Part shown: positions 3,330-34,434 of the stretch, one piece after another
Layout: every line of letters begins with the position of its first letter
Position numbering within the stretch: the first letter of the stretch is position 1
IMG/VR virus record: IMGVR_UViG_3300029124_000021
From: a virus
Direction: 5' to 3' (one strand)
DNA: 34,434 nucleotides
Notes under the pieces: model-generated
Databases searched by the model: none
Seen by the model: the letters and a program-made list of their open reading frames with translations, nothing else
Told to the model about the DNA's origin: nothing
Made by a program: the position numbers and the translations under genes

Positions 3330-3364
3330 CGAGGTTGAGCCACTGGCTTGACCTCGTTTTTTTG
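3330..3364 (+). terminator. Rho-independent terminator (cgaggt...acctcg stem with inner agcca/tggct pairing, then T7)
   Basis: GC-rich extended hairpin immediately followed by ttttttt, downstream of the stop at 3318. Confidence 0.75.
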
Positions 3365-8664: not shown

Positions 8665-9162
8665 ATGGCAGACGATGAAAAAACTTTTACGCAAGCTGAT
8701 GTTGACAAGCTGATGGCAAATTTAAACGCAAAACATCAAGAGGACATGAATGCCCTTGCCGGCAAATTAAGGGCAGAGTTTAAAGACAAAGAGGCTAAGG
8801 CTAAGGCAGAGGCTGAAAAACTCGCTAAACAAGCTAATATGTCCGAACTTGAAAAAGCAAATGCCGAACTTGCTGACTGGAAAGCTAAGTATCAGGAAAA
8901 AGAGGACTTAATTAATCTTTCAACGCAAAAAGACGAAACACGTAAATTAATGAAAGAAATGGGAGTTGATGAGGGCTGTCTTGATTTTTGTTTTATCCCA
9001 AAAGATACAGATGGTACAAAAGCCCGGATAGAAGCGTTTAAAGAGTACACGGACGGAGTTAAAAAAGCCACGTTTGAAAACGGTATGCAGTCTAAAATTC
9101 CACAGTCACATACACAAAAAAAGAGTGATGATACCGCTTTAAGAAAGGCTTTCGGGCTATAA
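8665..9162 (+). CDS. Scaffolding protein
   Basis: Coiled-coil sequence rich in A/K/E located between the minor head and major capsid genes. Confidence 0.6.
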   Translation: MADDEKTFTQADVDKLMANLNAKHQEDMNALAGKLRAEFKDKEAKAKAEAEKLAKQANMSELEKANAELADWKAKYQEKEDLINLSTQKDETRKLMKEMGVDEGCLDFCFIPKDTDGTKARIEAFKEYTDGVKKATFENGMQSKIPQSHTQKKSDDTALRKAFGL

Positions 9163-9177
9163 TAGGAGATTTTAAAA

Positions 9178-10086
9178 ATGACACAACAAATTGATTTAGT
9201 TACAAAAATGTTACCTCTAATCGACGAGGTCTATAAAAAAGAGGCAAAATCCGCAATTTTGGAAGCTCCGAGTGAATTGGTGCAAGAAACACAAGATGCG
9301 AATACTTTTAAAATTGCAAAACTTGCATTAATGGGATTAGGCGATTACTCCAAAACAACAGGATTTCCAGAAGGTGACATCTCGCTTACTTGGGAAACAC
9401 ACACTTTCGCTAATGATAGAGGCAGACGTTTCTCTGTCGATAGAATGGACAATATTGAAAGTTTTGGACTTGTTGCAGGGCGTATGGTTGGCGAATTTAT
9501 CAGACAGTACGTAATCCCTGAAATTGATGCTTACCGCTTTGCAAAAATTGCATCAAAAGCAGGAAATATCGCAACTGCCGCAACTTTGACGGCTTCCACT
9601 GCAAAATCAGCACTTGATACCGCAATTACGGCTTTGCAAGAGAAAGAAGTCGACGATAATCGACAAATAATTTTTGCAACACCGACAGTTGCTCAATTAT
9701 TGTCCGATAATATCACTAGAACTACATTAAACGGCGAAAATGCAATCAACAATGTGATTGAAAGTTATAACGGCATTCAGATTGTCAGAGTTCCGCAAAC
9801 TCGTTTTTACACTCAAATCACATTGGCAGACGGTCAACCTTCTGATGGTGCAAATACTGCCGGTGGGTACTCCAAAACTGCAACAACTGGGGCAGACATC
9901 AACTTTATCGTTATGGATAAAGCCGCATCTGTCAACATCACAAAATCCGTTGTTGCGAAGTTGTTTACACCTGACGAAAACCAAAACAAAGATGCATGGC
10001 AATTCGATTATAGATTGTATCATGATAGTTTTGTTTTCGATAACAAAAAAGCAGGTATTTACTTGAACGCAAAAGCCGCAGGTTAA
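9178..10086 (+). CDS. Major capsid protein (XkdG position)
   Basis: 302 aa directly after the scaffold gene, followed by a strong hairpin. Confidence 0.65.
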   Translation: MTQQIDLVTKMLPLIDEVYKKEAKSAILEAPSELVQETQDANTFKIAKLALMGLGDYSKTTGFPEGDISLTWETHTFANDRGRRFSVDRMDNIESFGLVAGRMVGEFIRQYVIPEIDAYRFAKIASKAGNIATAATLTASTAKSALDTAITALQEKEVDDNRQIIFATPTVAQLLSDNITRTTLNGENAINNVIESYNGIQIVRVPQTRFYTQITLADGQPSDGANTAGGYSKTATTGADINFIVMDKAASVNITKSVVAKLFTPDENQNKDAWQFDYRLYHDSFVFDNKKAGIYLNAKAAG

Positions 10087-25999: not shown

Positions 26000-26422
26000 A
26001 TGTTTAAAAGTGATGATAGGGTCGGAAATATCGAACTTTTAGAACAAAAATTAAAACATTATGAGGAGCAATCCTCAATAAATGAAACAGGTTATTGGCA
26101 GAAATTATCTGAAATGTGTTCTAAATTAAGTTCCGACCAGCTTAATTATATTAATAACAACGAAAACGTTATTGATAAGAAAAATAAGATGATGGAAGCC
26201 TTTAATCTGTTTTTGTTTGAAAATTTCAAAAAAGATTTTGCGGAAATTCCAAATTGTCAAAAACTTTGTGATGATTATATCGATACAATTCAAGATACTA
26301 TCGCTAATTATAACAAACAGATCGCAAATACAATCGAAGAAAATAAAGAACTTAAAACCAAAATTGCTGAATTGGAAAGGAAAATAAAAAATAATGAGAA
26401 ATCTAATACAAAGAGAACTTGA
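26000..26422 (+). CDS. Hypothetical coiled-coil protein
   Basis: Very AT-rich ORF; C-terminal KELKTKIAELERKIKNNEK. Confidence 0.4.
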   Translation: MFKSDDRVGNIELLEQKLKHYEEQSSINETGYWQKLSEMCSKLSSDQLNYINNNENVIDKKNKMMEAFNLFLFENFKKDFAEIPNCQKLCDDYIDTIQDTIANYNKQIANTIEENKELKTKIAELERKIKNNEKSNTKRT

Positions 26423-26750
26423 TAAAGCCGAAGAATACTTGTTAAAAACTCTTTTTAATGATATTCAAAATCCACAAATAAGCAATAAAATTAAGTTTTT
26501 TATGATATCTAAAAATATTGATTTTGACACCTTTATAAATCATAAAATAATGATTTTTGAGGAATTTTCACAAGATTTTATGAAAGATAACGGTTATTAT
26601 GATGGTGAAAAATTAACAAAAGTTTTGTTATTAAAATTTCCTATATTAGAGGGTTTAGAACTCCCCGATATTAAACCAATAGATTTACTTAAAATATTAG
26701 ATAATTTTATAAATTTAAAACAAATAGGAAATTTTATTCAAAATTTTTAG
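26394..26750 (+). CDS. Hypothetical protein
   Basis: AT-rich ORF overlapping its neighbours. Confidence 0.35.
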   Translation: MRNLIQRELDKAEEYLLKTLFNDIQNPQISNKIKFFMISKNIDFDTFINHKIMIFEEFSQDFMKDNGYYDGEKLTKVLLLKFPILEGLELPDIKPIDLLKILDNFINLKQIGNFIQNF

Positions 26751-26752
26751 AG

Positions 26753-27214
26753 GTGAACATGAAAGAAAAAGCTTTAAATAAATACAAAGAACTGAAAAAA
26801 GATAATCCGAATATTGACAATGAACTTATAATGACAATTATTGAGCAAATGCCACAAGAAGCTATTTGTGTGTTTGACTATATGCTTTATGGTTATCATA
26901 TTGTTTCAAAAGAAATGTATGAAAAAGCAGTTGAGTGTCTTGTAAATCAGGACGACTCAAAAGGCCCAAAATGGAGCTTAACAGAAATCAAAAACAAGGT
27001 AAACATTGATTTTGATAACAAGGATTATACTTTGATGGATTATGCCTATACTCTGAATATGAAATATAGCGATATTGGCGATTTGATTAGCACAGATATG
27101 CTTATGAAGATTGCAAAACGTTATCTTGAAGATAAAGACTATTATGGAGACCCGTCAGAACGTGCATATTTTGATGCAAAAGAGCGAATAAAATATTTTG
27201 AAGAAAAAGACTAA
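26753..27214 (+). CDS. Hypothetical protein
   Basis: AT-rich ORF followed by a strong terminator. Confidence 0.4.
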   Translation: MNMKEKALNKYKELKKDNPNIDNELIMTIIEQMPQEAICVFDYMLYGYHIVSKEMYEKAVECLVNQDDSKGPKWSLTEIKNKVNIDFDNKDYTLMDYAYTLNMKYSDIGDLISTDMLMKIAKRYLEDKDYYGDPSERAYFDAKERIKYFEEKD

Positions 27215-27220
27215 CTCCTA

Positions 27221-27248
27221 CCGCCGCCAATAAAAACGGCGGTTTTTA
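27221..27248 (+). terminator. Rho-independent terminator (ccgccg-ccaataaaaa-cggcgg + ttttta)
   Basis: Perfect 6-bp GC stem plus a T-run after the 27214 stop. Confidence 0.65.
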
Positions 27249-27279
27249 TTATTGGTAACATAAAAGAGGTAATAAGGAA

Positions 27280-27522
27280 ATGAAATTTATGAGCTTAACG
27301 CCCGAAGAAGAACGAGAAATGTATGCAGACATTAAAGTAATAAAAAGTAATTGTGCAAGATGTCTTGAATGCCAAAAAGAACACGGCGAAAGGTTAACAC
27401 AATTAGAACAAGATGTTACTATTTTGAAAGAGGATAAAAAAATAACAAGTCTTGTTTGTTCAGGTATTGGCGCACTTATTATGTGGTTGTTGAGCAATTT
27501 ATTTAGTTTTTTTAAAGGTTAG
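27280..27522 (+). CDS. XhlA-like / holin-like membrane protein (N-terminal coiled coil, C-terminal TM)
   Basis: 80 aa; ITSLVCSGIGALIMWLLSNLF TM segment; immediately upstream of the amidase, as in the PBSX xhlA-xlyA arrangement. Confidence 0.55.
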   Translation: MKFMSLTPEEEREMYADIKVIKSNCARCLECQKEHGERLTQLEQDVTILKEDKKITSLVCSGIGALIMWLLSNLFSFFKG

Positions 27523-27527
27523 ATTTT

Positions 27528-28019
27528 ATGAAACGTATAATCATTCACTGGACTGCCGGAACAAACAAACCTTGCGCTACTGATTTGGAACATTATCATT
27601 ATTTAGTTACAGGTGCCGGAGAAGTTAAAAACGGCAAATACAAGCCGGAAGATAACGAGAATTGCAATGACGGTAAATATGCACCACACACAGGCGGCGG
27701 TAATACCGGTTCAATTGGTGTAGCTATGTGCGGCATGTATGTGCCTTCAAAGGTAGACATTACACGCACTGAATACCCGTTGACAAAAGTTCAGTGTGAA
27801 AGAACATTTAAACTTTGCGCAGATTTGTGCAAGAAGTATAATATACCTATCACGCCTGATTACGTTATGACACATTATGAATTCGGAAAGAAACACCCGA
27901 AAACATCTAGCGCAGGCAAAATTGATATCATTTATCTTCCACCGTGGCAAGAAGTAGCACCCGCTAAGATAGGTGATTTTATACGAAATAAAATCAAATG
28001 GTATTATAAAAATTCATAA
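27528..28019 (+). CDS. N-acetylmuramoyl-L-alanine amidase endolysin (Amidase_2/PGRP, T7-lysozyme-like), no wall-binding domain
   Basis: IIHWTAG...HYHYLV...HTGGGNTGSIGVAMCG...THYEFGKKHPKTSSAGKIDI correspond to Amidase_2 catalytic and Zn-ligand regions; 163 aa. Confidence 0.85.
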   Translation: MKRIIIHWTAGTNKPCATDLEHYHYLVTGAGEVKNGKYKPEDNENCNDGKYAPHTGGGNTGSIGVAMCGMYVPSKVDITRTEYPLTKVQCERTFKLCADLCKKYNIPITPDYVMTHYEFGKKHPKTSSAGKIDIIYLPPWQEVAPAKIGDFIRNKIKWYYKNS

Positions 28020-28046
28020 TCATTAACTTTTTAAACTTAACTTACA

Positions 28047-28080
28047 AGCCCTATTTATAGACCGTAGGGCTTTTTATTTG
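28047..28080 (+). terminator. Terminator hairpin agcccta-N11-tagggct + ttttatttg between convergent genes
   Basis: 7-bp stem followed by a T-run after the lysin stop; overlaps the 3' end of the minus-strand gene. Confidence 0.7.
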
Positions 28081-28829
28081 CTAAGTTTTCTCAACACCTC
28101 CTGCAACATTGCACACTCTTTAGGCGGTTCAGCAACCCAAATTCTATTCTGTGCATTTCTTGCCTCTGTTTCTTTAATTTGTTGCGCATAATACCTATTA
28201 ACTGCCTCTTTTGCTTTAAAGTCCTTGATAATCTTTTCTGCAAAGCCATTGCGTTTTAAAGCTGCAATGTATGAAGTTACATTCTTAGCTCTCTTACTTT
28301 CTGCATATTCTTTTAGAATTTTAAAATCCTCAACTCTTTCAGGTTGATTAATTTGTTCCTTTATAGGTTCATGTTCATGATGTGACAAATTGTCACGGTT
28401 TGAATTGTCATTTTGTCCTAAATCTTCTGACATATTTTCAGGTGTAAAAATTTTTTCATTTTGAGGCCACTCTCCGCCAATTCTTGACGTGAAAACATAG
28501 TGATTGGTATATTTGCTCTCAATTAAAATTAACCCCTCTTTAACAAGCTCCTGAATACCTCTAACAACAGAACGCTCTGAAACTCCTATTTTTTTGGCAA
28601 GAGTTTTTTGTTTTGGGAACATATCAGGTTTATTTGGGTTATAACAAGCAGATAATTCCAACAAAACAAGTTTTGCTATTGGGGTAATATCAAATTGTGA
28701 CAAATTATTAAGTAAATAGTTTGTCAGTTTAAATTGTGAAAAGCCATGTCCAGCATGCCTTTTAACTGTGTTTTCTCTCATTTCCACATCTCCCTTTTTA
28801 AAATTTTGCACATCAACTATTGCCTTCAA
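28074..28829 (-). CDS. Winged-helix DNA-binding protein (Rep/replisome-organizer-like or regulator), first gene of the minus-strand lysogeny side
   Basis: FPKQKTLAKKIGVSERSVVRGIQELVKEGLILIE is a wHTH; 251 aa. It occupies the slot where an integrase is usually found. Confidence 0.55.
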   Translation of the reverse strand: MKAIVDVQNFKKGDVEMRENTVKRHAGHGFSQFKLTNYLLNNLSQFDITPIAKLVLLELSACYNPNKPDMFPKQKTLAKKIGVSERSVVRGIQELVKEGLILIESKYTNHYVFTSRIGGEWPQNEKIFTPENMSEDLGQNDNSNRDNLSHHEHEPIKEQINQPERVEDFKILKEYAESKRAKNVTSYIAALKRNGFAEKIIKDFKAKEAVNRYYAQQIKETEARNAQNRIWVAEPPKECAMLQEVLRKLSK

Positions 28830-28987
28830 AGGGAAACCGTGATATCATTTTGTTGTGAATTAGAATTTTTCTTTTGGGCTTTCCTTTGGAAGGTCTTTTT
28901 TATTATTTAGTTTTTTGTTAACAGCATGTAAAGATTAGCATGCCATTACTTTCTTCATGATATAGCTTGTGATAATGTTGTGTCAAG

Positions 28988-29037
28988 CGGTTATTAACCG
29001 TTGAAAATATTGTGAGTTACTGATAATAACCGGTTAT
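28988..29037. promoter_or_regulatory. Two related palindromes, cggttaTTaaccg (28988-29000) and ataaccggttat (29026-37), in the divergent intergenic region
   Basis: They share AACCG/CGGTT half-sites; the second abuts the RBS of the 29054 gene. Confidence 0.4.
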
Positions 29038-29053
29038 GAAGGAGTAATTTATT

Positions 29054-29731
29054 ATGGATAGAAAGTTAAAAGTTGCAGAGTTTGCAGCACTTTTAGGAAT
29101 TGTGCCTAAGACAGTTTATAAAATGATTGAGCGTAACGAGATAATTACCGTAACTGAAAAGGTGAATAACCGTCAAACAACGCTTGTGATAACGAATGAT
29201 GAACAGATTGAGGAATTTAGAAAAAGTTACAGTAAAAATCAGGTTAATAACGGTAATTATTACGAGAATGTTACAGAAAATGAATGTTCAGAGAGTTACA
29301 CTGAGCGAAATGAACAGGTAAAAAATAATTACGGTACTGAATTTGCCAATGAAGTAATTGATAAGATAATAACCCTAAATAACGGATACAATGAACAGAT
29401 AAACGAATACAATAACCGCTTAGAGAAAGTTAATGAGCAGTTAATCACTGCTAAGAGTAAATTATTATTACTTGAAGATAAAGCAGGACGTGAAGGCGTA
29501 TATATCAATGAAATTAACGAGTTAAGAACAGATAATAACAAGTTAAAAAAAGTTATTTACGGTTTATTTACTGTAATAGCACTTTTATTATTAATATTTA
29601 CTTGTTATTTAACTTACAATATTGTAATCTCAAGCTCAATACAATCAATTCCCGAGAAAAACTCGGCAGTTCAACAGGTTAGTCAACCGGTTAAAGAAAG
29701 TAATAAACCGGTAGTAAAAAATCCTAAATAA
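29054..29731 (+). CDS. Membrane-anchored HTH protein (Xis/MerR-like N-terminal HTH, coiled coil, C-terminal TM)
   Basis: LKVAEFAALLGIVPKTVYKMIERNEI HTH; IYGLFTVIALLLLIFTCYLTYNIVI TM near the C-terminus. Confidence 0.5.
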   Translation: MDRKLKVAEFAALLGIVPKTVYKMIERNEIITVTEKVNNRQTTLVITNDEQIEEFRKSYSKNQVNNGNYYENVTENECSESYTERNEQVKNNYGTEFANEVIDKIITLNNGYNEQINEYNNRLEKVNEQLITAKSKLLLLEDKAGREGVYINEINELRTDNNKLKKVIYGLFTVIALLLLIFTCYLTYNIVISSSIQSIPEKNSAVQQVSQPVKESNKPVVKNPK

Positions 29732-29741
29732 ACAAAATAAT

Positions 29742-30344
29742 CTATACGTTTGTTCTGATAAGGCTTACAACTCGCCCAATGATTTTAAATGTATCGTTAG
29801 GGGTAATTACTCTATTTTGATATTCTTTGTTTTCTGATTTAATAATAATCTGATCTATATTTTTGACAAGCTTTTTAATGAATAATTCATTGTTGTATGA
29901 AAATAAATAAACTTTGTCATCTATTATTTGTTCACCTTGCCAATGTTTTAAAATAACTTTATCACCATCAAATATAAGAGGATACATGGATGAACCTTCG
30001 GCAGTAATGACAGAATATGTCGCATTTGATGAATAATCTGTAATACTGTCTTTGCTTATTGATATTTTCTCGGGGCTTTCTTGAAAAACTGTACAACCAG
30101 TTCCGCAAGAGGCAAAAACATCAGGATAATAATTGAGTTCAACAGAATTATTATCACCGCCACGTAAACTTATGCCATAATGTTCTTCGATTTTTTCTAT
30201 TTCTTCGTCTGAAAAATCGGCATTACGAGCAACTCTATTGCCAATAGCAGAAGCACCAATACTTAAAACTTTACCAATTTCAGCATATGACGGCTTATAA
30301 TTTATTAAGTTTTGTAAATCTGAAAAAAGCGTTAAACTACGCAT
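29742..30344 (-). CDS. CI-like repressor with LexA-type S24 peptidase domain
   Basis: N-terminal HTH SYAEIGKVLSIGASAIGN; S24 catalytic Ser motif GSSMYPLIFDGD and a downstream Lys in FIKKL. Confidence 0.85.
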   Translation of the reverse strand: MRSLTLFSDLQNLINYKPSYAEIGKVLSIGASAIGNRVARNADFSDEEIEKIEEHYGISLRGGDNNSVELNYYPDVFASCGTGCTVFQESPEKISISKDSITDYSSNATYSVITAEGSSMYPLIFDGDKVILKHWQGEQIIDDKVYLFSYNNELFIKKLVKNIDQIIIKSENKEYQNRVITPNDTFKIIGRVVSLIRTNV

Positions 30345-30451
30345 TTATAAACCTCGTACATTAAAAGTGTAATAAAAAGCGTCGATATACACAAAAAGTG
30401 TTGACATTTTACATGTTCTGTGTTACCATGTGTCCATAAGGAAATCGGACA
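30345..30451. promoter_or_regulatory. Divergent switch region: PR-like promoter (+) TTGACA 30401-06 / TACCAT 30424-29 (17-bp spacer) and PRM-like promoter (-) TTGTGT (30389-94) / TACACT (30366-71), with ACAC-N5-GTGT and ACATG-N11-CATGT inverted repeats
   Basis: Both promoters have 17-bp spacers and their -35 elements lie back-to-back. The inverted repeats overlap the -35 and -10 regions. Confidence 0.5.
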
Positions 30452-30607
30452 ATGAAAACAGAACACATTACAATCCGCTTATCACGTGAATTGAAAGAAC
30501 AAGTCGAAGAATATGCAAGTAAGCATAAATGGACAAGAAACTTTGCAATTTGCGAGATAATTGCGAACCACTTTAATAACTATGAACTATCTGGAGATTT
30601 AAGATAG
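30452..30607 (+). CDS. Ribbon-helix-helix (CopG/Arc-like) small protein, Cro analogue
   Basis: MKTEHITIRLSRELKEQVEEYASKHKWTRNFAICEIIANHF reads as beta-strand then two helices. RBS aagga 8 nt upstream. Transcribed divergently from cI. Confidence 0.55.
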   Translation: MKTEHITIRLSRELKEQVEEYASKHKWTRNFAICEIIANHFNNYELSGDLR

Positions 30608-30855
30608 TTATTTAAAAGAAGACAAAAGGGAACTTCAATAGCTCCCCCAAATCTCCTGAATAATATTAACTCAAACAAACCCCAAAGACAATCTTTTCAT
30701 GGGTTTAGTTGTAATACAAATTTACAATAGAACATTGACAATTAAATACCATAAGACGCTAAAGATGATATATCGGCGCAGAAAAACAAGTTTTTAATCA
30801 GCTGTCAAGTAATCCTTGACAGTTGCCATAAGAACTTTAAAGAAATCTTTTCACC

Positions 30856-31073
30856 TTGCCCTGTGCAACCGTTTACACAAAAACCTCATATAAGTCTACC
30901 TGCGCAGGGCAACCTAAAGAGATTTACTGGGGAAACACTCCTTTGTGGCTAATTAACTATACGATGTAGACCAACAATTCCATTCCGTTTCCCCTTTTTC
31001 TAAAACTTTACTATCCTTTTGGGGCTACCGTAAAACTCACTGAACTTAAAAATATCACAAGCCCCTTTTTTTT
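30856..31073 (+). ncRNA. Structured non-coding leader: a 12-bp long-range stem (30856-67/30901-12), a ggggaaac/gtttcccc stem + T5 (30929-30999), and ggggct/agcccc + T8 (31021-31073)
   Basis: Inverted repeats and T tracts are visible directly; no ORF over 30 aa; GC content above the local background. Whether it is a stable RNA or a cis-acting attenuator is unresolved. Confidence 0.35.
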
Positions 31074-31102
31074 AGATTTTTACGACATAGGAGATAATAA
31101 AA

Positions 31103-31198
31103 ATGAACTTATCATTACCACTTGTCATTCAAGGAATGGCAGTTTTTGCAACGTTTTATTTTATGTTTACAAGCTTTGTAATTTTGATTGGAGGCTAA
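31103..31198 (+). CDS. Small hydrophobic peptide (31 aa, single TM: MNLSLPLVIQGMAVFATFYFMFTSFVILIGG)
   Basis: RBS aggag 9 nt upstream. First ORF after the tandem terminators; its 3' end contains the RBS of the next gene. Confidence 0.3.
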   Translation: MNLSLPLVIQGMAVFATFYFMFTSFVILIGG

Positions 31199-31201
31199 AA
31201 A

Positions 31202-31456
31202 ATGTTAGAAAATTATTGTTATCCAACAATGGATAAAGACTTATTACTCCACAAAATAAACAAAATATCAGCTAAGCTTGATGCTTATTATCAAACAATT
31301 GAACGAAACAATGTTGACATTCCCGACTTTATGAAATCAGCAGAACATCAAAGGAAAAACCTTATTAAAGCAGACATTAATAGACTGCTTAGAGAAGGAA
31401 CTCTTGATTATTACTATTTCGAATTGTTAGAGGAAGAAGATGGCATTAGAAGATAA
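31202..31456 (+). CDS. Hypothetical early protein
   Basis: 84-aa ORF with an RBS ggagg. Confidence 0.45.
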   Translation: MLENYCYPTMDKDLLLHKINKISAKLDAYYQTIERNNVDIPDFMKSAEHQRKNLIKADINRLLREGTLDYYYFELLEEEDGIRR

Positions 31457-31613
31457 TTTTCTGAATAAAGATCCCCAAAATTATCAAACAGAGCTTGAAT
31501 TTTTATTAAATTCAGGTTCACTTTCTTTTGATGATTGCGAGGCATTATTTGGAAGTAAAAAGATTACAAAAGAAGATTTTGAGTATTGCAAAGAATACTT
31601 TGAAGAAGTTTAG
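31440..31613 (+). CDS. Small acidic hypothetical protein (57 aa)
   Basis: Start overlaps the upstream gene; below the ORF-track size cut-off. Confidence 0.3.
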   Translation: MALEDNFLNKDPQNYQTELEFLLNSGSLSFDDCEALFGSKKITKEDFEYCKEYFEEV

Positions 31614-31619
31614 AAAGGA

Positions 31620-31934
31620 TTGATTATGACAAAAGAATTGAACGGCATTGTTGATGAAATGCTGGAAAACAAAGACTTGCAGGCTCAACACAAATTTGAG
31701 CTTAAACGTCTTGAGCAACAGGAAGAACTTTTGAACGTGAAACTTATCGGAGTTCTCAAAAAAATGAAAGTTAATGAAATGATTTTACCTAACTGCAAAT
31801 TCGGAATAACAACCAAAACAAGAACGGTATTTGACCAAAAACTATTCAGTCAAGAAAACCCTAAATTATTTGAAAAATATAAACTTACAAAAGAACAAGA
31901 AAAGTTTGAGTTCAAAATAGGTAATTTTGGCTAG
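31620..31934 (+). CDS. Hypothetical protein (likely ATG at 31626)
   Basis: 104-aa ORF next to the recombinase gene. Confidence 0.45.
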   Translation: MIMTKELNGIVDEMLENKDLQAQHKFELKRLEQQEELLNVKLIGVLKKMKVNEMILPNCKFGITTKTRTVFDQKLFSQENPKLFEKYKLTKEQEKFEFKIGNFG

Positions 31935-31942
31935 GAGGTAAT

Positions 31943-32062
31943 ATGAATAAATGGGAAATTTATACAGATCAAGACCTCGACAAATTGCTTAGAGATGCAA
32001 TTGAAATGCGTGATAAACGCTGGCTAAGAGCTATTAAAGCTGAAATAACTAGGAGAAATTGA
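31943..32062 (+). CDS. Small 39-aa ORF
   Basis: RBS aggagg upstream; its stop abuts the ERF start. Confidence 0.25.
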   Translation: MNKWEIYTDQDLDKLLRDAIEMRDKRWLRAIKAEITRRN

Positions 32063-32063
32063 G

Positions 32064-32657
32064 ATGAATAGATTGATTAATATACAAAGCAAATTAAAAG
32101 CTCCTAAAAATCAAAAGAATACATTCGGTAATTATTATTACCGGAGTTGTGAAGATATTTTAGAGGCGGTCAAGCCACTTTTGCAAGAAGAAAAGCTTAG
32201 TTTGGTAATATCTGATGAGATTATTAATGTCGGGACACGCTTTTATGTTAAAGCTACGGCAAAACTTTTTGATGATGCAGGGAAAGAACTTGTTAGTACA
32301 TCGGCTATCGCTAGGGAAGAAGAAAGCAAAAAAGGCATGGAGGCAAGCCAAATTACAGGTAGCACATCATCATACGCTCGTAAGTATGCCCTAAATGGTT
32401 TATTTGCAATTGATGATAATAAAGATGCAGATAATACCAATACACACGATAAAAAACCTTCAAAAACAAATCCCGATTTAGACCTTTTGCAAGGGTTACA
32501 AGCAACAGTATCAACAAATGAGGCACACAGGTATTATCAACAAAACCTAGCAAGTGCAAAGGATAATGAGGATTTTAAACAAGCTTATATGAAACATTAC
32601 AGTGTTTTAAAACGAAAGGAAGAAAAATGTCAGAAAAACAATTCGTTAAAGGATTAA
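32064..32657 (+). CDS. erf: ERF-family single-strand annealing protein (recombinase)
   Basis: KNTFGNYYYRSCEDILEAVKPLL and TSSYARKYALNGLF match ERF superfamily signatures. Confidence 0.8.
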   Translation: MNRLINIQSKLKAPKNQKNTFGNYYYRSCEDILEAVKPLLQEEKLSLVISDEIINVGTRFYVKATAKLFDDAGKELVSTSAIAREEESKKGMEASQITGSTSSYARKYALNGLFAIDDNKDADNTNTHDKKPSKTNPDLDLLQGLQATVSTNEAHRYYQQNLASAKDNEDFKQAYMKHYSVLKRKEEKCQKNNSLKD

Positions 32658-32866
32658 ATATAAAGACAAAAACAACACAATATGGCGATATTATCAAAGT
32701 AGGAATAAATGTTAGTGATTTTTGTGATAAAAATCCAATGAATGAACGAGGATATATTAACTTTGATATCAAAAAAGGAAAGTCAGAAAAATGGTATGCA
32801 GAACTTAATACATACGGACAAAAGACAGAAGAAGATCCAATCAATGAGGATGAAATACCGTTTTAA
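32627..32866 (+). CDS. Small hypothetical protein downstream of ERF (possible OB-fold/ssDNA-binding partner)
   Basis: Position only; alternating beta-like pattern KGLNIKTKTTQYGDIIKVGINV. Confidence 0.35.
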   Translation: MSEKQFVKGLNIKTKTTQYGDIIKVGINVSDFCDKNPMNERGYINFDIKKGKSEKWYAELNTYGQKTEEDPINEDEIPF

Positions 32867-32875
32867 GGAGAGTAA

Positions 32876-33658
32876 ATGAGTAAAAGATTTGTAGATACTG
32901 AACTTTGGCAAAAAGAATGGTTTCAGGATTTAAGTTTAAAACACAAGATTTTACTTAAATATCTATTTGAAAATTGCGATTGTGCAGGTATTTGGAATAT
33001 TAATTTTCGCTTAGCATCTTTCATAATCGGAGAAAAAGTTTCTCTCGATGATATTAAGCATATTAATTCTGTAAAACAACAATTCGAAATATTAGATAAT
33101 AAAAATATTTTTGTTCTTGATTTTATCAAATTTCAATATGGAACTCTTTCAGAAAATTGTAAACCTCATAAAAATGTTATAGAAAAATTAAAAAAATACA
33201 ATTTATTTGAAAGGGTATGTAAAGGGTATCCAAAGGGTATAGAAACCCTTGAAGAAAAAGAACAATACACAGAAAAAGAAAAGGATAAAGATATTTCTTC
33301 TTTGGTACTTTCTTCTTTAAACGAAAATCAAAAAATCTATGGCGAATACAACAATGTTTGCTTAACCGCTGAACAATATAACCGGTTATTAGCAAAATGT
33401 GCAAGTCAGAAATTGCTAGATGAGCTTATCGATAGTCTTTCGGCTAACATTGAAACAGGGAAGGAACAGCCCTTTCGAGCTGACTTCCCCAACGCTCATA
33501 GCATAAGACTTGAGAAGTATTTTGAATTTCGTAAAAAACATCCTGAACGCTTTAACTCAAAGCTTAAATCAGGCAATCAATTTCAAACAGATGAACAGGA
33601 AGAAATCAGAAAAATAGCTGCAGAATGGGCGAAACGAGGTGACAATGAACGTACGTGA
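32876..33658 (+). CDS. Replisome organizer / replication initiator-like protein
   Basis: Position after the ERF module and in-gene iterons; N-terminal WQKEWFQDLSLKHKILLKYLFENCDCAGIW region. Confidence 0.55.
   Translation: MSKRFVDTELWQKEWFQDLSLKHKILLKYLFENCDCAGIWNINFRLASFIIGEKVSLDDIKHINSVKQQFEILDNKNIFVLDFIKFQYGTLSENCKPHKNVIEKLKKYNLFERVCKGYPKGIETLEEKEQYTEKEKDKDISSLVLSSLNENQKIYGEYNNVCLTAEQYNRLLAKCASQKLLDELIDSLSANIETGKEQPFRADFPNAHSIRLEKYFEFRKKHPERFNSKLKSGNQFQTDEQEEIRKIAAEWAKRGDNERT
33213..33240 (+). repeat. Three direct repeats of aaaGGGTAT at 11-bp spacing (iteron-like), plus a partial inverted copy agaaaccctt
   Basis: GGGTAT at 33213, 33224 and 33235 inside the replication gene. Confidence 0.45.
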
Positions 33659-34046
33659 GTTTTTAAATGAAATGCTTTTTTACTTCCCTCTAAAACGGAA
33701 TAAAGAAGATCTTGAAAAGCTTTTTGAAATCTATGTTAATGATATCCTCTTTTCAATCGCACAATACAAAGACTATGAATGTGATTATAAGACTTTGTTA
33801 CAACTAATTCGTTGTAACAGAACTTATACAAACTTCCCCCCTGTTGCGGAAATTATAAAAGATATTCCAAAAGCATTAAAGTTAAAACCTATAACACCTG
33901 AATATTCAGGACATGAAGGAGAAGTTGTTAAACGGATTTTAAACGGGGTTGAATACGAGTTTACAGTAGTTCCCAATCATTGGAATAAGGTCAAAACCGT
34001 TTCAGAAATAGACAAAGAGATATCACAACGACAAAAAACAGTATAG
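33639..34046 (+). CDS. Hypothetical protein (likely start MNVREF at 33645)
   Basis: 135-aa ORF overlapping the end of the upstream gene. Confidence 0.4.
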   Translation: MTMNVREFLNEMLFYFPLKRNKEDLEKLFEIYVNDILFSIAQYKDYECDYKTLLQLIRCNRTYTNFPPVAEIIKDIPKALKLKPITPEYSGHEGEVVKRILNGVEYEFTVVPNHWNKVKTVSEIDKEISQRQKTV

Positions 34047-34107
34047 CTTTGAACAATAACAAAAATAATTCATACACATTTTAAGTGAGTATTTATAAGG
34101 AGAAATT

Positions 34108-34434
34108 ATGATAGAAGAATTAAAAGAGATATTTGAACTTGCCACATCTCTAACAACATTGGCAAAAGAGATTTTAAAGTTAAAACCAAATAATAAAAAT
34201 GCAAATGAAAATGATATAATTATTGCAAATAAGAACAACTACGCACAAATCGGAAGTTCTGGCAACTACGCACAAATCGGAAGTTCTGGCAACTCCGCAC
34301 TAATCGGAAGTTCTGGCTACTCCGCACAAATCGGAAGTTCTGGCAACTACGCACAAATCGGAAGTTCTGGCGACTACGCACAAATCGGAAGTTCTGGCTA
34401 CTCCGCACAAATCGGAAGTTCTGGCGACTACGCA
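34108..34434 (+). CDS. 5' portion (3'-truncated at the window edge) of the tandem-repeat protein: 47-aa N-terminus then IGSSGxxAQ repeats
   Basis: RBS aaggag 7 nt upstream of ATG 34108. The frame runs into the 27-bp repeat array and stays open to the window end. Confidence 0.6.
   Translation, partial: MIEELKEIFELATSLTTLAKEILKLKPNNKNANENDIIIANKNNYAQIGSSGNYAQIGSSGNSALIGSSGYSAQIGSSGNYAQIGSSGDYAQIGSSGYSAQIGSSGDYA
34250..34434 (+). repeat. 6.85 tandem copies of the same 27-bp unit as at 1-189
   Basis: Units at 34250, 34277, 34304, 34331, 34358, 34385 and a 23-nt partial unit at 34412. Variation is at the same 4 unit positions. Confidence 0.95.

What the first reader, a model, noticed from the sequence alone, without database searches (positions are those of the whole stretch)
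30608..31198. ~450-bp structured leader with two tandem intrinsic terminators gating the early recombination/replication operon, followed by a tiny hydrophobic peptide
Between the Cro-like gene and the first early ORF there is no coding capacity. Instead there is a GC-enriched block with a perfect 8-bp hairpin (30802-30822), a 12-bp long-range stem allowing one G-U pair (30856-67 with 30901-12), then two GC stems each followed by a T-run (30929-30999 and 31021-31073). Transcription from PR must read through both to reach erf and the replication genes. This is the architecture expected for processive antitermination (N/nut-like, or a cis-acting put-like RNA) or for an attenuator/sRNA, but no N- or Q-like protein is evident. 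The first downstream ORF is a 31-aa single-TM peptide whose 3' end carries the next gene's RBS. It may be a leader peptide or a small membrane toxin.
Basis: partly seen in the sequence, partly recalled or inferred. Interest (0 to 1): 0.65.

Follow-up and report, generated by a model that had tools for sequence, protein, structure and literature searches.

The report
Modular structured leader gating phage early genes
The non-coding stretch after this gut phage's Cro-like gene is a real, conserved, rightward-transcribed RNA leader built from four separable hairpin modules (two long bipartite hairpins, then two terminators with unusually large loops), and none of the modules matches an Rfam family.

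Summary
All four described structures exist at the stated coordinates. Only the + strand folds far better than shuffles (z -6.6 against -1.9). Rfam and ARAGORN find nothing.

Comparison with about 25 related gut-phage contigs refines the picture. The "8-bp hairpin" is the tip of a 50-nt bipartite hairpin, P1 (30788-30837). Its lower stem never varies and 10 of 11 upper-stem pairs covary. The "12-bp stem" is the upper half of a second bipartite hairpin, P2 (30843-30925), which also covaries. T1 and T2 are GC stems closing 50- and 33-nt loops, each followed by a U-run. Their stems differ between relatives yet still pair.

The modules are separable. P1 or P2 alone sits directly 5' of ribosome-binding sites in distant relatives. 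An ORF splits P1 from P2 in one relative. T2 is absent in some relatives and replaced by a tRNA-like remnant in others.

The order [quoted passage not shown] recurs as far away as GenBank Dulem virus 31.

Best reading: a terminator gate on the early operon, with P1/P2 as the cis RNA signal (antitermination, or else processing). No antiterminator activity is shown. This is a new variant of a known kind.

The parts
30357..30424 (.). Three operator-like repeats of the form TACAY-N5-GTGTW (30357-71, 30388-402, 30411-25). They overlap the divergent repressor/PR promoter region.
   Evidence: Direct-repeat family D2, plus my reading. The motif is absent from the box upstream of P1.
30401..30429 (+). 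PR-like promoter, TTGACA-17-TACCAT preceded by TG
   Evidence: 10 of 12 consensus positions. This is a consensus match only.
30452..30607 (+). 51-aa Arc-like ribbon-helix-helix protein, the 'Cro-like' gene
   Evidence: PHROG 582 Arc-like repressor, E 6.7e-6. No Pfam hit. The identical protein occurs on 24 or more metagenomic contigs.
30626..30648 (-). Hairpin H-a. It has a U-rich tail only on the minus strand, so it is terminator-like for leftward transcription.
   Evidence: One search gives 9 bp followed by TTGTCTTCTT on the minus strand. The minus-strand fold has z -3.1. An equivalent hairpin with a different sequence occurs in L031 and L061.
30677..30706 (-). Hairpin H-b (AAACCC/GGGTTT), again with a U-rich tail on the minus strand only
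   Evidence: The equivalent in L031, L042 and L061 is AAGCC/GGCTT, which is a covarying stem.
30735..30775 (+). Conserved 'box': TTGACA (30735-40), then AATAC-CATAAGAC, then TGATATATC (30767-75). It is a candidate internal promoter or protein-binding site and marks the 5' boundary of the conserved unit.
   Evidence: The box is kept when the upstream immunity module is swapped (L013, L015, L016, L023). It is also kept next to moron insertions (L001, L009, L025). A homologous box lies in the divergent promoter region of L028 and L087 and in Dulem virus 31. L023 reads TGATATATT, a near-consensus extended -10. No convincing sigma-70 -10 element is present in the window itself.
30788..30837 (+). 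P1, a bipartite hairpin. The lower stem is AAGUUUUUA/UAAGAACUU (9 bp including one U.G). The internal loop is AU/CCA. The upper stem is 11 bp with loop UAAUC.
   Evidence: Fold -21.1 kcal/mol, z -7.6. In 13 distinct versions, 97.7% of cells are paired and 10 of 11 upper-stem pairs show a change on both sides, with 0 of 500 shuffles as high. Model R1 scores 77 bits on the + strand and 37 bits on the minus strand.
30843..30925 (+). P2, a bipartite hairpin. The lower stem is AAAUCUUUU/AAGAGAUUU (9 bp including one U.G). The internal loop is CACC/CCUA. The upper stem is 12 bp. The apical loop is 33 nt and is dispensable.
   Evidence: Fold -27.9 kcal/mol, z -6.1. 95% of cells are paired and 4 pairs show changes on both sides. 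RNAalifold finds the same two helices independently. The apical loop is swapped in L004, L005, L026 and L027 and reduced to GAAA in L087.
30929..30999 (+). T1, a terminator-like element. An 8-bp stem GGGGAAAC/GUUUCCCC closes a 50-nt loop that begins with the conserved ACUCCUUU, and is followed by UUUUUCU.
   Evidence: z -3.1. The closing stems are GGGGGAA, GGGGCA, CGAGGAAG, GGGACACA and GGGCGG in relatives, and all pair and are followed by U-runs. The CUCCUU motif is kept in the window-clade contigs other than L024 and in L148 and L029.
31021..31073 (+). T2, a second and optional terminator-like element. A 6-bp stem GGGGCU/AGCCCC closes a 33-nt loop and is followed by U8.
   Evidence: -9.3 kcal/mol, z -1.1. 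It is absent in L001, L004, L005 and L009. In L002, L007 and L023 the slot holds a tRNA-like piece. That piece scores 15.4 bits against the Rfam tRNA model, whose gathering score is 29, and ARAGORN does not call it.
31090..31198 (+). Ribosome-binding site GGAGA (31090-94) and the 31-aa single-TM peptide ORF (31103-31198). Its last codons (GGA GGC) form the ribosome-binding site of the next gene.
   Evidence: There are 12 distinct 31-aa versions plus one 33-aa version, sharing the pattern ..IQG..F..FY....F.ILIGG. Variable sites by codon position are 18/10/23. A different 29-aa TM peptide occupies the same place in Dulem virus 31.
31202..31456 (+). 84-aa first sizeable early protein, function unknown, followed by the 57-aa and 104-aa ORFs and erf
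   Evidence: Only 7 clusters of this protein exist among 5.8 billion proteins. Erf lies at 32064-32657 (PF04404 in the relatives; annotated Erf genes under the BLAST matches).

Best explanation
The interval 30735-31102 is a rightward-transcribed, non-coding leader of the early lytic operon. It is assembled from four independently exchangeable RNA modules.

Proposed mechanism. RNA polymerase arrives from PR through the Arc-like gene, and possibly also from a conserved promoter-like box at 30735-30775. It first transcribes two long bipartite hairpins, P1 and P2. Each has a sequence-conserved AU-rich lower stem with a fixed U.G pair, a small internal loop, and a freely covarying upper stem. Polymerase then meets one or two intrinsic terminators (T1, T2), whose GC stems close large loops and are followed by U-runs. 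Unmodified polymerase mostly stops there. That yields a structured RNA of roughly 210-300 nt and keeps the 31-aa peptide, Erf and the replication genes silent. Expression of the early genes requires the terminators to be overridden. P1 and P2 are the only elements conserved upstream of the terminators across relatives with different protein sets. They are therefore the best candidates for the cis-acting RNA signal that makes polymerase terminator-resistant. They could do this alone, in the manner of put, EAR or canT, or together with a host or phage factor, in the manner of nut.

Shown:
- the structures, their strand and their covariation;
- the modularity;
- the conservation of the 'hairpin, terminator(s), peptide' order.

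Inferred:
- that T1 and T2 terminate;
- that they are overridden rather than merely leaky;
- that P1/P2 are the override signal.
For: 1. Strand-specific structure. The + strand folds with z -6.6 and the minus strand with z -1.9. Models R1 and R2 score about twice as high on the + strand. G.U intermediates occur only in the + sense.
2. Covariation in P1, in P2 and in the T1/T2 closing stems.
3. Every window-clade relative keeps at least one stem-plus-U-run immediately upstream of the peptide's ribosome-binding site. L148 has P2-T1-T2. L029 has P2-T1. L061 has its second P1 copy followed by a long-loop terminator. Dulem virus 31 has P1, one ORF, then a cluster of three to four terminators before a 29-aa TM peptide and the recombination genes.
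4. The two complete genomes (the window and Dulem) each have exactly one P1, placed at the head of the early operon rather than between many genes.
5. The window has no homologue of the proteins that flank P1 elsewhere, namely the 93-aa wHTH and the 78-aa Zn-ribbon protein. It also has no N- or Q-like hit. The shared components are therefore RNA.
6. Another strong + strand terminator sits at the early/late boundary at 3330-3356. The late genes lie on the same strand as the early operon. Long-range read-through would therefore be useful.
7. There is precedent for RNA-only or RNA-plus-protein processive antitermination in mobile elements: put, EAR, conAn and canT (PMC11658703; PMC9378689).
Against: - No experiment or transcript data exist, and the host is unknown.
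- T1 and T2 have 50- and 33-nt loops. T2 is barely more stable than shuffles (z -1.1). Standard criteria do not call either. They may be weak, leaky attenuators that need no override.
- P1 and P2 are not always followed by terminators. In L028, L029, L061, L087 and L025 they sit 2-25 nt upstream of a ribosome-binding site. That placement suits a processing, stabiliser or translation role. L028 has three such hairpins within 2 kb.
- L025 has an ORF between P1 and P2, so they do not act as one put-like two-stem unit.
- The invariance of the P1 lower stem in distant relatives is partly built into my search patterns and into the BLAST hit.
- The box lacks a convincing -10 element in the window.
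Confidence: 0.35

Rival explanations
1. P1 and P2 are processing or 5'-stabiliser hairpins. They would be cut by RNase III or a similar double-strand nuclease, or would simply block 5' exonuclease, giving each downstream cassette a defined and stable 5' end next to its ribosome-binding site. T1 and T2 would be ordinary, partly leaky terminators or insulators at cassette borders. No dedicated antitermination exists, and the level of early-gene expression is set by terminator leakiness.
For: - Both hairpins give about 20-21 bp of helix interrupted by a small internal loop. The P1 upper-stem length is held at 10-11 bp while its sequence turns over completely.
- In relatives they lie 2-25 nt 5' of a ribosome-binding site. 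Examples are GAACUUAGAAAGGAG and GAUUUUGAAAGGAG.
- P1 and P2 are interchangeable in front of homologous genes. In L029 a repeat-protein gene follows P1. In L087 its homologue follows P2.
- Several copies occur per operon in L028 and L061.
- In L023, L024, L031 and the second copy in L028, a -10-like hexamer lies 3-13 nt upstream, which would put the hairpin at the 5' end of a transcript.
- Phage SP82 early RNA is a known target of B. subtilis RNase III (PMC4838370, which cites Panganiban and Whiteley 1983). That T7 early mRNAs are processed at intercistronic RNase III hairpins is from my own knowledge.
- The large loops make T1 and T2 plausible weak terminators.
Against: - A stabiliser or RNase III site needs structure. 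It does not need an invariant 9-10-bp lower-stem sequence with a fixed U.G pair.
- The two complete genomes have only one P1 each, unlike the many intercistronic RNase III sites of T7 (from my own knowledge).
- In the window P1 is not next to any ribosome-binding site.
- Clusters of up to four tandem terminators (Dulem virus 31) are hard to explain as mere leak-setting.
Confidence: 0.3
2. The box, P1, P2 and T1 (with or without T2) form a stand-alone small-RNA gene of about 220-300 nt. It would be made constitutively, including in lysogens, and would act in trans by base-pairing or protein sequestration. It would compare with lambda oop and the 6S transcript, or with the P1 c4 and P4 CI immunity RNAs. 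The terminators would simply be the 3' end of this RNA.
For: - The conserved unit starts at the box whatever lies upstream.
- The box carries no copy of the repressor operator.
- L023 has a near-consensus extended -10 element 13 nt before P1.
- The P2 apical loop sequence is conserved between the window and the divergent L024 although the stem covaries.
- The interior of T1 keeps the motifs ACUCCUU and AUUCCA.
Against: - No antisense target for the P2 loop or other single-stranded segments stands out in the phage genome.
- The P2 loop is replaced outright in L004, L005, L026 and L027 and is a GAAA tetraloop in L087.
- P1 and P2 occur separately, and as 5' UTR elements of protein genes, in relatives.
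- L025 carries an ORF inside the would-be small RNA.
- There is no match to C4 or any other Rfam family.
Confidence: 0.12
3. The leader is a sensing attenuator. The conserved interior of T1, or P2 together with T1, would bind a ligand, a tRNA or a protein that decides whether the closing stem forms and termination occurs, in the manner of a riboswitch, a T-box or a protein-dependent attenuator.
For: - T1 is a conserved domain closed by a helix and followed directly by a U-run. It keeps internal motifs while the closing stem covaries.
- L031 has a 140-nt multi-stem domain closed by GGCGG/CCGCC and followed by GUUUUUAU.
- A tRNA-like piece occupies the T2 slot in some relatives.
Against: - No Rfam riboswitch or T-box match was found even at E<=10.
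- RNAalifold finds no conserved structure inside the T1 loop.
- I found no conserved alternative (antiterminator) pairing.
- The T1 interior varies in length from about 35 to 50 nt, with little sequence kept.
Confidence: 0.06
4. The 31-aa hydrophobic peptide is a type I toxin. The structured upstream RNA would be its translation-blocking 5' UTR. The two minus-strand terminator-like hairpins (H-a, H-b) would mark an antisense antitoxin RNA.
For: - The peptide is a conserved small single-TM peptide.
- The 5' region is long and structured.
- H-a and H-b have U-tails only on the minus strand, and this is conserved in L031 and L061.
- The ACUCCUUU motif in T1 could pair with the AGGAG ribosome-binding site (my reading).
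Against: - The peptide is translationally coupled to the next gene and heads a long operon, so it is not a stand-alone cassette.
- It has no charged tail.
- No credible leftward promoter was found.
- H-a and H-b lie about 400 nt upstream of the peptide ORF and do not overlap its mRNA ends.
- A non-homologous TM peptide fills the same slot in Dulem virus 31.
Confidence: 0.05
5. The conservation is at the DNA level. The inverted repeats would be a replication origin, an attachment or recombination site, or repeat 'linkers' that only serve module exchange.
For: - Indels and cassette swaps cluster at P1 and P2 borders. Examples are the L025 insertion with a duplicated AACTT(G/T)AAA, the P1 copies flanking inserts in L028, L061 and L031, and the duplicated box in L001 and L009. 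This resembles PeSL-mediated shuffling in T4-like phages (PMC4122927).
- A tRNA-like 3' piece occurs in L002.
Against: - Covariation passes through G.U states that are mismatches on the other strand.
- The two strands score very differently.
- The likely origin is elsewhere, at the 27-bp iteron-like repeats.
- No integrase was found among the ORFs scanned.
- A role in recombination is compatible with an RNA function and does not replace it.
Confidence: 0.04

Closest known systems
HK022 putL/putR (cis-acting antiterminator RNA of a lambdoid phage)
   Same: Both are stem-loops with internal loops, transcribed just downstream of the early promoter and cro and upstream of the first early terminators. 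No N-like protein is evident in either. Stems covary while local sequence features are kept.
   Different: I saw no sequence or structure similarity, and nothing in Rfam matched (I did not check whether put is an Rfam family). P1 and P2 are larger (50 and 83 nt). They can be separated by an ORF (L025) and occur singly, next to ribosome-binding sites, in relatives. Activity on RNA polymerase is untested.
Lambda nutR-tR1, and the lambda PR'-6S RNA-tR' unit
   Same: Position is shared: cro, then an RNA signal, then terminator(s), then replication/recombination genes. A promoter-proximal terminated leader of about 200 nt is also shared.
   Different: There is no boxA/boxB pattern, because the P1 apical loop is variable. 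No N-like arginine-rich protein and no Q-like protein was found. The terminators have 33-50-nt loops.
canT of Tn916, conAn of pLS20 and EAR of B. subtilis (RNA-based processive antitermination in Gram-positive elements)
   Same: Each is a long structured leader RNA in a mobile element, followed by intrinsic terminators that insulate replication or transfer genes (PMC11658703).
   Different: This is architectural resemblance only, with no detectable homology. canT is a 452-nt region with an undefined structure. Here the modules are short, defined and supported by covariation.
RNase III processing hairpins of phage early mRNAs (T7 R sites, SP82 sites)
   Same: Both give about 20 bp of helix interrupted by an internal loop. 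Both lie between genes, just 5' of a ribosome-binding site, with more than one per operon in some relatives.
   Different: The lower stem is invariant in sequence, with a fixed U.G pair. Only one P1 occurs per complete genome. Cleavage has not been tested.
PeSL cassettes of T4-like phages (promoter-early stem-loop motifs that mediate modular shuffling)
   Same: Both are short conserved regulatory motifs containing a stem-loop that flank insertions, deletions and gene swaps in early regions (PMC4122927).
   Different: The sequence, phage group and host differ. PeSLs are defined as terminator/promoter composites. Here the promoter part is uncertain and the hairpins are not terminators.

Membership tests
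Intrinsic (Rho-independent) terminator | GC-rich stem immediately followed by a U-run | tested here: met
   T1 is an 8-bp stem followed by UUUUUCU. T2 is a 6-bp stem followed by U8. The stem plus U-run is kept in all relatives although the stem sequences differ.
Intrinsic (Rho-independent) terminator | Compact hairpin with a loop of about 3-8 nt | tested here: not met
   The loops are 50 nt (T1) and 33 nt (T2), so the standard scan does not call them. The T2 fold is only -9.3 kcal/mol with z -1.1.
Intrinsic (Rho-independent) terminator | Transcripts end at the U-run | not testable with these tools
   This needs 3'-end mapping or in vitro transcription.
Lambda-type N/nut antitermination | A boxA motif plus a short boxB hairpin whose loop is conserved for N binding | tested here: not met
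   The P1 apical loop differs in nearly every relative: UAAUC, AAUUG, GGAA, AUUUU and UUUUU. The conserved part is the base-paired lower stem, not a single-stranded boxA.
Lambda-type N/nut antitermination | A small arginine-rich N-like protein encoded early | tested here: not met
   No Pfam or PHROG hit of that kind was found among the early ORFs. The proteins that flank P1 in relatives are absent from the window. A 39-aa ORF with a basic tail (31943-32062) lies downstream of the terminators and was not followed up.
HK022 put-like RNA antiterminator | Two adjacent stem-loops in the nascent early transcript, upstream of terminators | tested here: inconclusive
   P1 and P2 are adjacent in the window, 5 nt apart. 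They are separated by an ORF in L025 and occur singly in L028, L029, L087 and L148.
HK022 put-like RNA antiterminator | Acts in cis on RNA polymerase without phage protein | not testable with these tools
   This needs reporter or in vitro transcription assays.
RNase III processing site | About two helical turns of double-stranded RNA, often with an internal loop | tested here: met
   P1 has 9 + 11 bp and P2 has 9 + 12 bp, each with a 2-4-nt internal loop.
RNase III processing site | Cleavage by RNase III | not testable with these tools
   This needs an enzyme assay or 5'-end mapping in an rnc mutant.
Any Rfam family (riboswitches, T-box, C4, tRNA, ribozymes and others) | Score at or above the family's gathering threshold | tested here: not met
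   There were no hits at gathering score in the whole window. Only chance-level hits (E >= 0.67) appeared at 30300-31400. Nothing was found in L024, L028 or L029.
tRNA gene (T2 slot of relatives L002, L007, L023) | Cloverleaf recognised by tRNA models | tested here: not met
   ARAGORN finds no gene. The Rfam tRNA model gives 15.4 bits against a gathering score of 29. A T-arm GAUGG-UUCAAUU-CCAUC and a 7-bp acceptor-like stem are present, but the anticodon arm is missing. It is a remnant or mimic. The window's own T2 lacks even the T-arm.
Type I toxin-antitoxin | A small hydrophobic toxin with an overlapping antisense RNA gene | tested here: inconclusive
   The peptide is present and conserved. 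No antisense promoter was found, and the peptide is translationally coupled to the next gene.
PeSL-like mobile regulatory cassette | A conserved short motif found at the borders of indels and gene swaps | tested here: met
   P1 copies or partial copies flank inserts in L028, L031 and L061. There is an ORF insertion beside P1 in L025. The box is duplicated around a two-ORF moron in L001 and L009.
PeSL-like mobile regulatory cassette | A composite of an early promoter and a terminator stem-loop | tested here: inconclusive
   -10-like hexamers lie next to P1 in only about half of the lineages. P1 and P2 have no U-run.

The most novel reading that the evidence does not exclude
P1 and P2 define a new family of short, protein-independent, cis-acting antiterminator RNAs. 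These bipartite hairpins would be recognised through an invariant AU-rich lower stem with a fixed U.G pair. A group of low-GC gut phages would use them as portable modules to carry RNA polymerase through clusters of long-loop terminators, and possibly on through the co-directional late genes. This would be a put-like mechanism in a new structural form and a new host range.
Probability: 0.2. Interest if true: 0.75.

Novelty: new variant of a known kind. Interest (0 to 1): 0.5.

Why it matters
Terminator gates opened by antitermination are the classic timing device of lambdoid phages. Outside the enterobacterial models only a handful of RNA-based systems are known (put, EAR, conAn, canT), and none has a compact structure supported by covariation.

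This leader offers two short, well-defined hairpin motifs that are absent from Rfam. They come with natural 'experiments' in the relatives: swapped loops, modules used singly, an inserted ORF, and terminators present, absent or replaced. That makes their function directly testable with small reporter constructs.

The result also has a practical use for annotation. In the one GenBank relative, Dulem virus 31, the leader is covered by spurious 'hypothetical proteins' on the wrong strand.

If the hairpins turn out to be processing or stabiliser sites instead, they would still be a useful example of portable 5' UTR insulators in mosaic phage genomes.

Tried and rejected
- Rfam at gathering score on the whole window, and at E<=10 on the region and on relatives, gave nothing meaningful.
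- ARAGORN found no tRNA or tmRNA in the window or in 11 loci.
- Two exact-word scans of the genome collection gave 0 hits, so the host stays unknown. A megablast of window 26000-34434 (lysis, immunity and early region) against plasmids gave no match.
- The one metagenome scan returned 2 true and 3 chance loci.
- I looked for a trans target of the P2 loop, the T1 interior, the 5' leader and the linker by exact or near-exact complement and by RNAduplex across both strands of the window. Nothing stood out beyond the self-match.
- I tested the idea that the P2 loop (AAACCUC) masks the repressor's ribosome-binding site (GAGGUUU). I rejected it. L015 has the same loop but a different repressor ribosome-binding site. 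The loop is also replaced in other relatives.
- I looked for a repressor operator at the box. The TACAY-N5-GTGTW operators of PR are not present there, only a weak inverted resemblance.
- I looked for a sigma-70 promoter for a leftward RNA ending at H-a or H-b. The best candidate, TTGTCA-17-TGTATT, lacks the key A at position 2 (my reading).
- I looked for more P1 copies in the window and found only one. No P1 occurs in L148 or L151-L154 even with filters off.
- A loose two-part pattern scan of viral contigs returned mostly chance hits, which I filtered by folding energy.
- A MAFFT alignment of the terminator arms came out of register, so I counted pairs with a script instead.
- The promoter-like site TTTAGA-16-GATAAT just after T2 is not kept in L024 or L148, and it would start transcription inside the peptide ORF. 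I treated it as chance.
Full report
**Setting.** The window is a roughly 34.4-kb, 30% GC tailed-phage genome. A 27-bp tandem repeat runs off both ends, which suggests a circular or permuted genome. The immunity region holds a leftward S24 (LexA/CI-type) repressor at 29742-30344. It also holds three operator-like repeats, a PR-like promoter and a rightward 51-aa Arc-like ribbon-helix-helix gene at 30452-30607. The next conserved coding sequence is a 31-aa peptide at 31103. It is followed by small early ORFs, erf (32064-32657) and replication genes. Nearly all other genes, including the late genes, are on the same strand. No close relative exists among cultured phages. The terminase is about 48% identical to those of Clostridium perfringens phages. 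The endolysin is 76% identical to that of the metagenomic 'Dulem virus 31'. The host is unknown.

**Checking the observation.** The 495-nt + strand folds at -112.9 kcal/mol against -78.8 +/- 5.2 for shuffles (z -6.6). The complementary strand gives only z -1.9. GC content peaks at 0.47. Rfam gives no match at gathering score, and only chance-level matches at E<=10. ARAGORN finds nothing. The standard terminator scan misses T1 and T2 because their loops are 50 and 33 nt. It does flag a hairpin just after the Arc-like gene whose U-tail is on the minus strand.

**Relatives.** Exact-protein look-ups, word scans and protein-guided scans yielded about 25 informative loci. They fall into three tiers:
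- a narrow 'window clade' (L001-L017, L023, L026, L027), in which the 84-aa early protein has only 7 clusters among 5.8 billion proteins;
- more divergent members (L024, L025, L148);
- distant gut phages of higher GC (L028, L029, L031/L042, L061, L087) and GenBank PP511318.1 (Dulem virus 31).

**P1.** The '8-bp hairpin' is the tip of a 50-nt bipartite hairpin at 30788-30837.
- Its lower stem is AAGUUUUUA/UAAGAACUU, including one U.G pair. The internal loop is AU/CCA, and the upper stem is 11 bp (z -7.6).
- In 13 distinct versions the lower stem never varies, while 10 of 11 upper-stem pairs change on both sides. 97.7% of cells are paired, no shuffle reaches the observed values, and slid registers give 33-53% pairing.
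- The window has a G.U pair where neighbours have G-C or A-U. This pattern is possible only for + strand RNA.
- Caveat: the distant versions were found with patterns or BLAST hits that required the lower-stem sequence. Its invariance is unbiased only for L024 and L025. One second copy in L061 has UAAGGACUU, which keeps pairing through a U.G pair.

**P2.** The '12-bp stem' is the upper helix of a second bipartite hairpin at 30843-30925.
- It has a 9-bp lower stem, AAAUCUUUU/AAGAGAUUU, and an internal loop CACC/CCUA (z -6.1).
- Both helices covary. In the lower stem, A-U becomes U-A in L001 and L009. The upper helix has three pairs that change on both sides.
- RNAalifold recovers both helices unaided.
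- The 33-nt apical loop is similar in the window and L024. It is replaced by unrelated sequence in L004, L005, L026 and L027 and by a GAAA tetraloop in L087. It is therefore dispensable.

**T1 and T2.**
- T1 (30929-30999) is an 8-bp GC stem closing 50 nt, followed by UUUUUCU. T2 (31021-31073) is a 6-bp stem closing 33 nt, followed by U8.
- Across relatives the closing stems have 13 different sequences yet pair, with a mean of 7.4 of 8 positions. Mismatched arm combinations pair at only 4.8 of 8. RNAalifold also calls the T1 stem.
- The T1 interior keeps ACUCCUU just after the 5' arm and AUUCCA near the 3' arm, but it has no consensus fold.
- T2 is optional. It is absent in L001, L004, L005 and L009. 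In L002, L007 and L023 the slot holds a tRNA-like remnant with a T-arm and an acceptor-like stem. That remnant scores 15.4 bits against the tRNA gathering score of 29, and ARAGORN does not call it.
- As a hairpin, the window's T2 is barely better than shuffles (z -1.1).

**Modularity.** The leader is not one unit.
- The conserved block begins at a 'box' (TTGACAAT..AATAC.CATAAGAC...TGATATATC, 30735-30775). The box is retained when the whole upstream immunity module is exchanged (L013, L015, L016, L023). It is duplicated around a two-ORF insertion in L001 and L009. It reappears in the divergent promoter region of L028 and L087 and in Dulem virus 31.
- It has a perfect -35-like hexamer but no good -10 element in the window. 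L023 reads TGATATATT. L024, L031 and the second L028 copy have good -10-like hexamers 3-11 nt before P1. Other lineages have none. An internal promoter is possible but not established.
- In L028, L029, L061 and Dulem virus 31, P1 is followed within 2-25 nt by a ribosome-binding site. L028 and L061 each have two copies flanking inserted genes. L031 has a second copy split by an 80-nt insert.
- L025 has a 51-aa ORF between P1 and P2.
- P2 alone precedes a ribosome-binding site in L087 and L028. In L087 it stands in front of a homologue of the gene that follows P1 in L029.
- L148 has P2-T1-T2 but no P1.
- Each of the two complete genomes (the window and Dulem) has exactly one P1.

**What is conserved at a higher level.** In every window-clade member, and in L148, at least one stem-plus-U-run lies directly upstream of the ribosome-binding site of a conserved 31-33-aa single-TM peptide. 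That peptide's last codons carry the next gene's ribosome-binding site. In Dulem virus 31 the order is Arc-like gene, 93-aa wHTH gene, box, a roughly 95-nt structured insert, P1, a 78-aa Zn-ribbon ORF, then about 350 nt. Those 350 nt hold three to four terminators (two of the long-loop kind) and a weak P2-like hairpin. A ribosome-binding site follows, then an unrelated 29-aa TM peptide, then the recombination genes. L029 has P2-T1 with the same CUCCUU motif and the same UUUUUCUUAGA tail. L061 has its second P1 followed by a long-loop terminator. So the design 'conserved hairpin(s), then terminator(s), then a tiny membrane peptide heading the recombination/replication operon' is under selection in this phage group.

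**Mechanism.** Two readings remain close.
- (a) Terminator gate with antitermination. The terminators block early lytic genes. P1 and P2 are the only shared elements upstream of them in phages with different protein sets. The window lacks the wHTH and Zn-ribbon proteins and has no N- or Q-like hit. On this reading P1/P2 are the cis RNA signal, as in put, EAR, conAn and canT (PMC9378689; PMC11658703). A further strong terminator at 3330-3356 before the co-directional late genes would also need to be passed, or bypassed by a late promoter.
- (b) Processing or stabiliser hairpins plus leaky terminators. Several features resemble phage RNase III sites (SP82 sites are cited in PMC4838370; the T7 sites are from my own knowledge). 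These are the geometry of about 20 bp with an internal loop, the constant stem length, the position next to ribosome-binding sites, the interchangeability and the multiple copies in some operons. The large loops suggest weak terminators.
- Against (b): the lower-stem sequence is invariant with a fixed U.G pair, there is a single copy per complete genome, and terminators occur in clusters.
- Against (a): many copies are not followed by terminators, and P1 and P2 need not be adjacent.
- I rank (a) slightly higher, at 0.35 against 0.30. Both are compatible with a third property, that the motifs mark recombination joints, as PeSLs do in T4-like phages (PMC4122927).

**Less likely readings.**
- A stand-alone trans-acting small RNA is unlikely. 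No target was found and the loops are dispensable.
- A ligand- or tRNA-sensing attenuator is unlikely. There is no Rfam match and no conserved alternative pairing.
- A type I toxin-antitoxin system is unlikely, because the peptide is operon-embedded.
- A purely DNA-level element is contradicted by the strand-specific G.U covariation.

**Verdict.** The elements are new sequence and structure families within a known kind of phage regulatory architecture, and their biochemical role is still to be shown.

Noticed in passing
window 30626-30648 and 30677-30706: Two hairpins lie right after the Arc-like gene, and both have U-rich tails only on the minus strand. The hairpins and their minus-strand tails are conserved, with different stem sequences, in L031, L042 and L061. 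No minus-strand gene lies to their right. A short leftward RNA from the intergenic region (oop-like) is possible, but I found no credible promoter for it.
   Followed up: partly
L002 3571-3632 (also L007 and L023), the slot corresponding to window T2: A tRNA-like remnant with a 7-bp acceptor-like stem, a D-like hairpin and a perfect T-arm (GAUGG-UUCAAUU-CCAUC). It has no anticodon arm and is followed by UUUUCUU. It scores 15.4 bits against the Rfam tRNA model and ARAGORN does not call it. The window's T2 looks like a further decayed version of it.
   Followed up: partly
window 34236-34434 and 1-190: A 27-bp tandem repeat (consensus CAACTACGCACAAATCGGAAGTTCTGG, about 14 copies in all) runs off both ends of the window, so the window is probably a circular or permuted genome cut inside the array. 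The array could be origin iterons or part of a repeat-protein gene like those in L028, L029 and L087.
   Followed up: partly
window 28074-28829 (minus strand) and the window's ORFs as scanned: A leftward gene next to the lysis module matches replication-initiator (O-like/DnaD-like, HTH_36) families. No integrase turned up among the ORFs I scanned against Pfam and PHROGs (not every ORF was scanned). The phage may be maintained as a plasmid prophage. No PLSDB plasmid matches window 26000-34434.
   Followed up: partly
window 3330-3356: A strong + strand intrinsic terminator (12-bp stem with 7 GC pairs, followed by T7) sits after the cytosine-methylase gene. It is followed by about 270 nt of non-coding sequence before the genes that lead to terminase. 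This is the early/late boundary and the likely site of late-gene control.
   Followed up: no
L155/L156 (GenBank PP511318.1, Dulem virus 31): This 35.8-kb circular genome encodes tail sheath, tail tube and terminase genes yet is filed under Microviridae. Its non-coding early leader, including P1, is annotated with a string of short 'hypothetical proteins' on the wrong strand.
   Followed up: partly
L028 about 9330-9470, L029 about 9050-9230, L087 3950-4070, L031 2520-2680: In distant relatives a GC-rich structured insert of 95-190 nt lies between the box and P1. One of its hairpins covaries (CCUGUC..GACAGG against CCUGCC..GGCAGG). The window has only 22 nt at this position. Rfam does not match this insert in L028 or L029.
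   Followed up: partly
L031 2740-3180 (also L042 and L128): After P1 there is a multi-stem domain of about 140 nt closed by GGCGG/CCGCC and followed by GUUUUUAU. After that comes a second P1-like hairpin carrying an 80-nt insertion, then the first ribosome-binding site. In total about 800 nt of non-coding leader follows the Arc-like gene.
   Followed up: no
window 31943-32062: A 39-aa ORF has an arginine/lysine-rich C-terminal half (RDKRWLRAIKAEITRRN) that resembles an RNA-binding arginine-rich motif. It lies downstream of T1 and T2, so it could not be the first trigger of read-through.
   Followed up: no
window 30379-30389 and 30769-30779: GCGTCGATATA, between the PR-region operators, is the near-perfect reverse complement (10 of 11 positions) of TATATCGGCGC just upstream of P1. 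The repressor mRNA leader and the P1 leader would therefore carry the same AUAUCG(A/G)CGC motif. Its significance is unknown.
   Followed up: no
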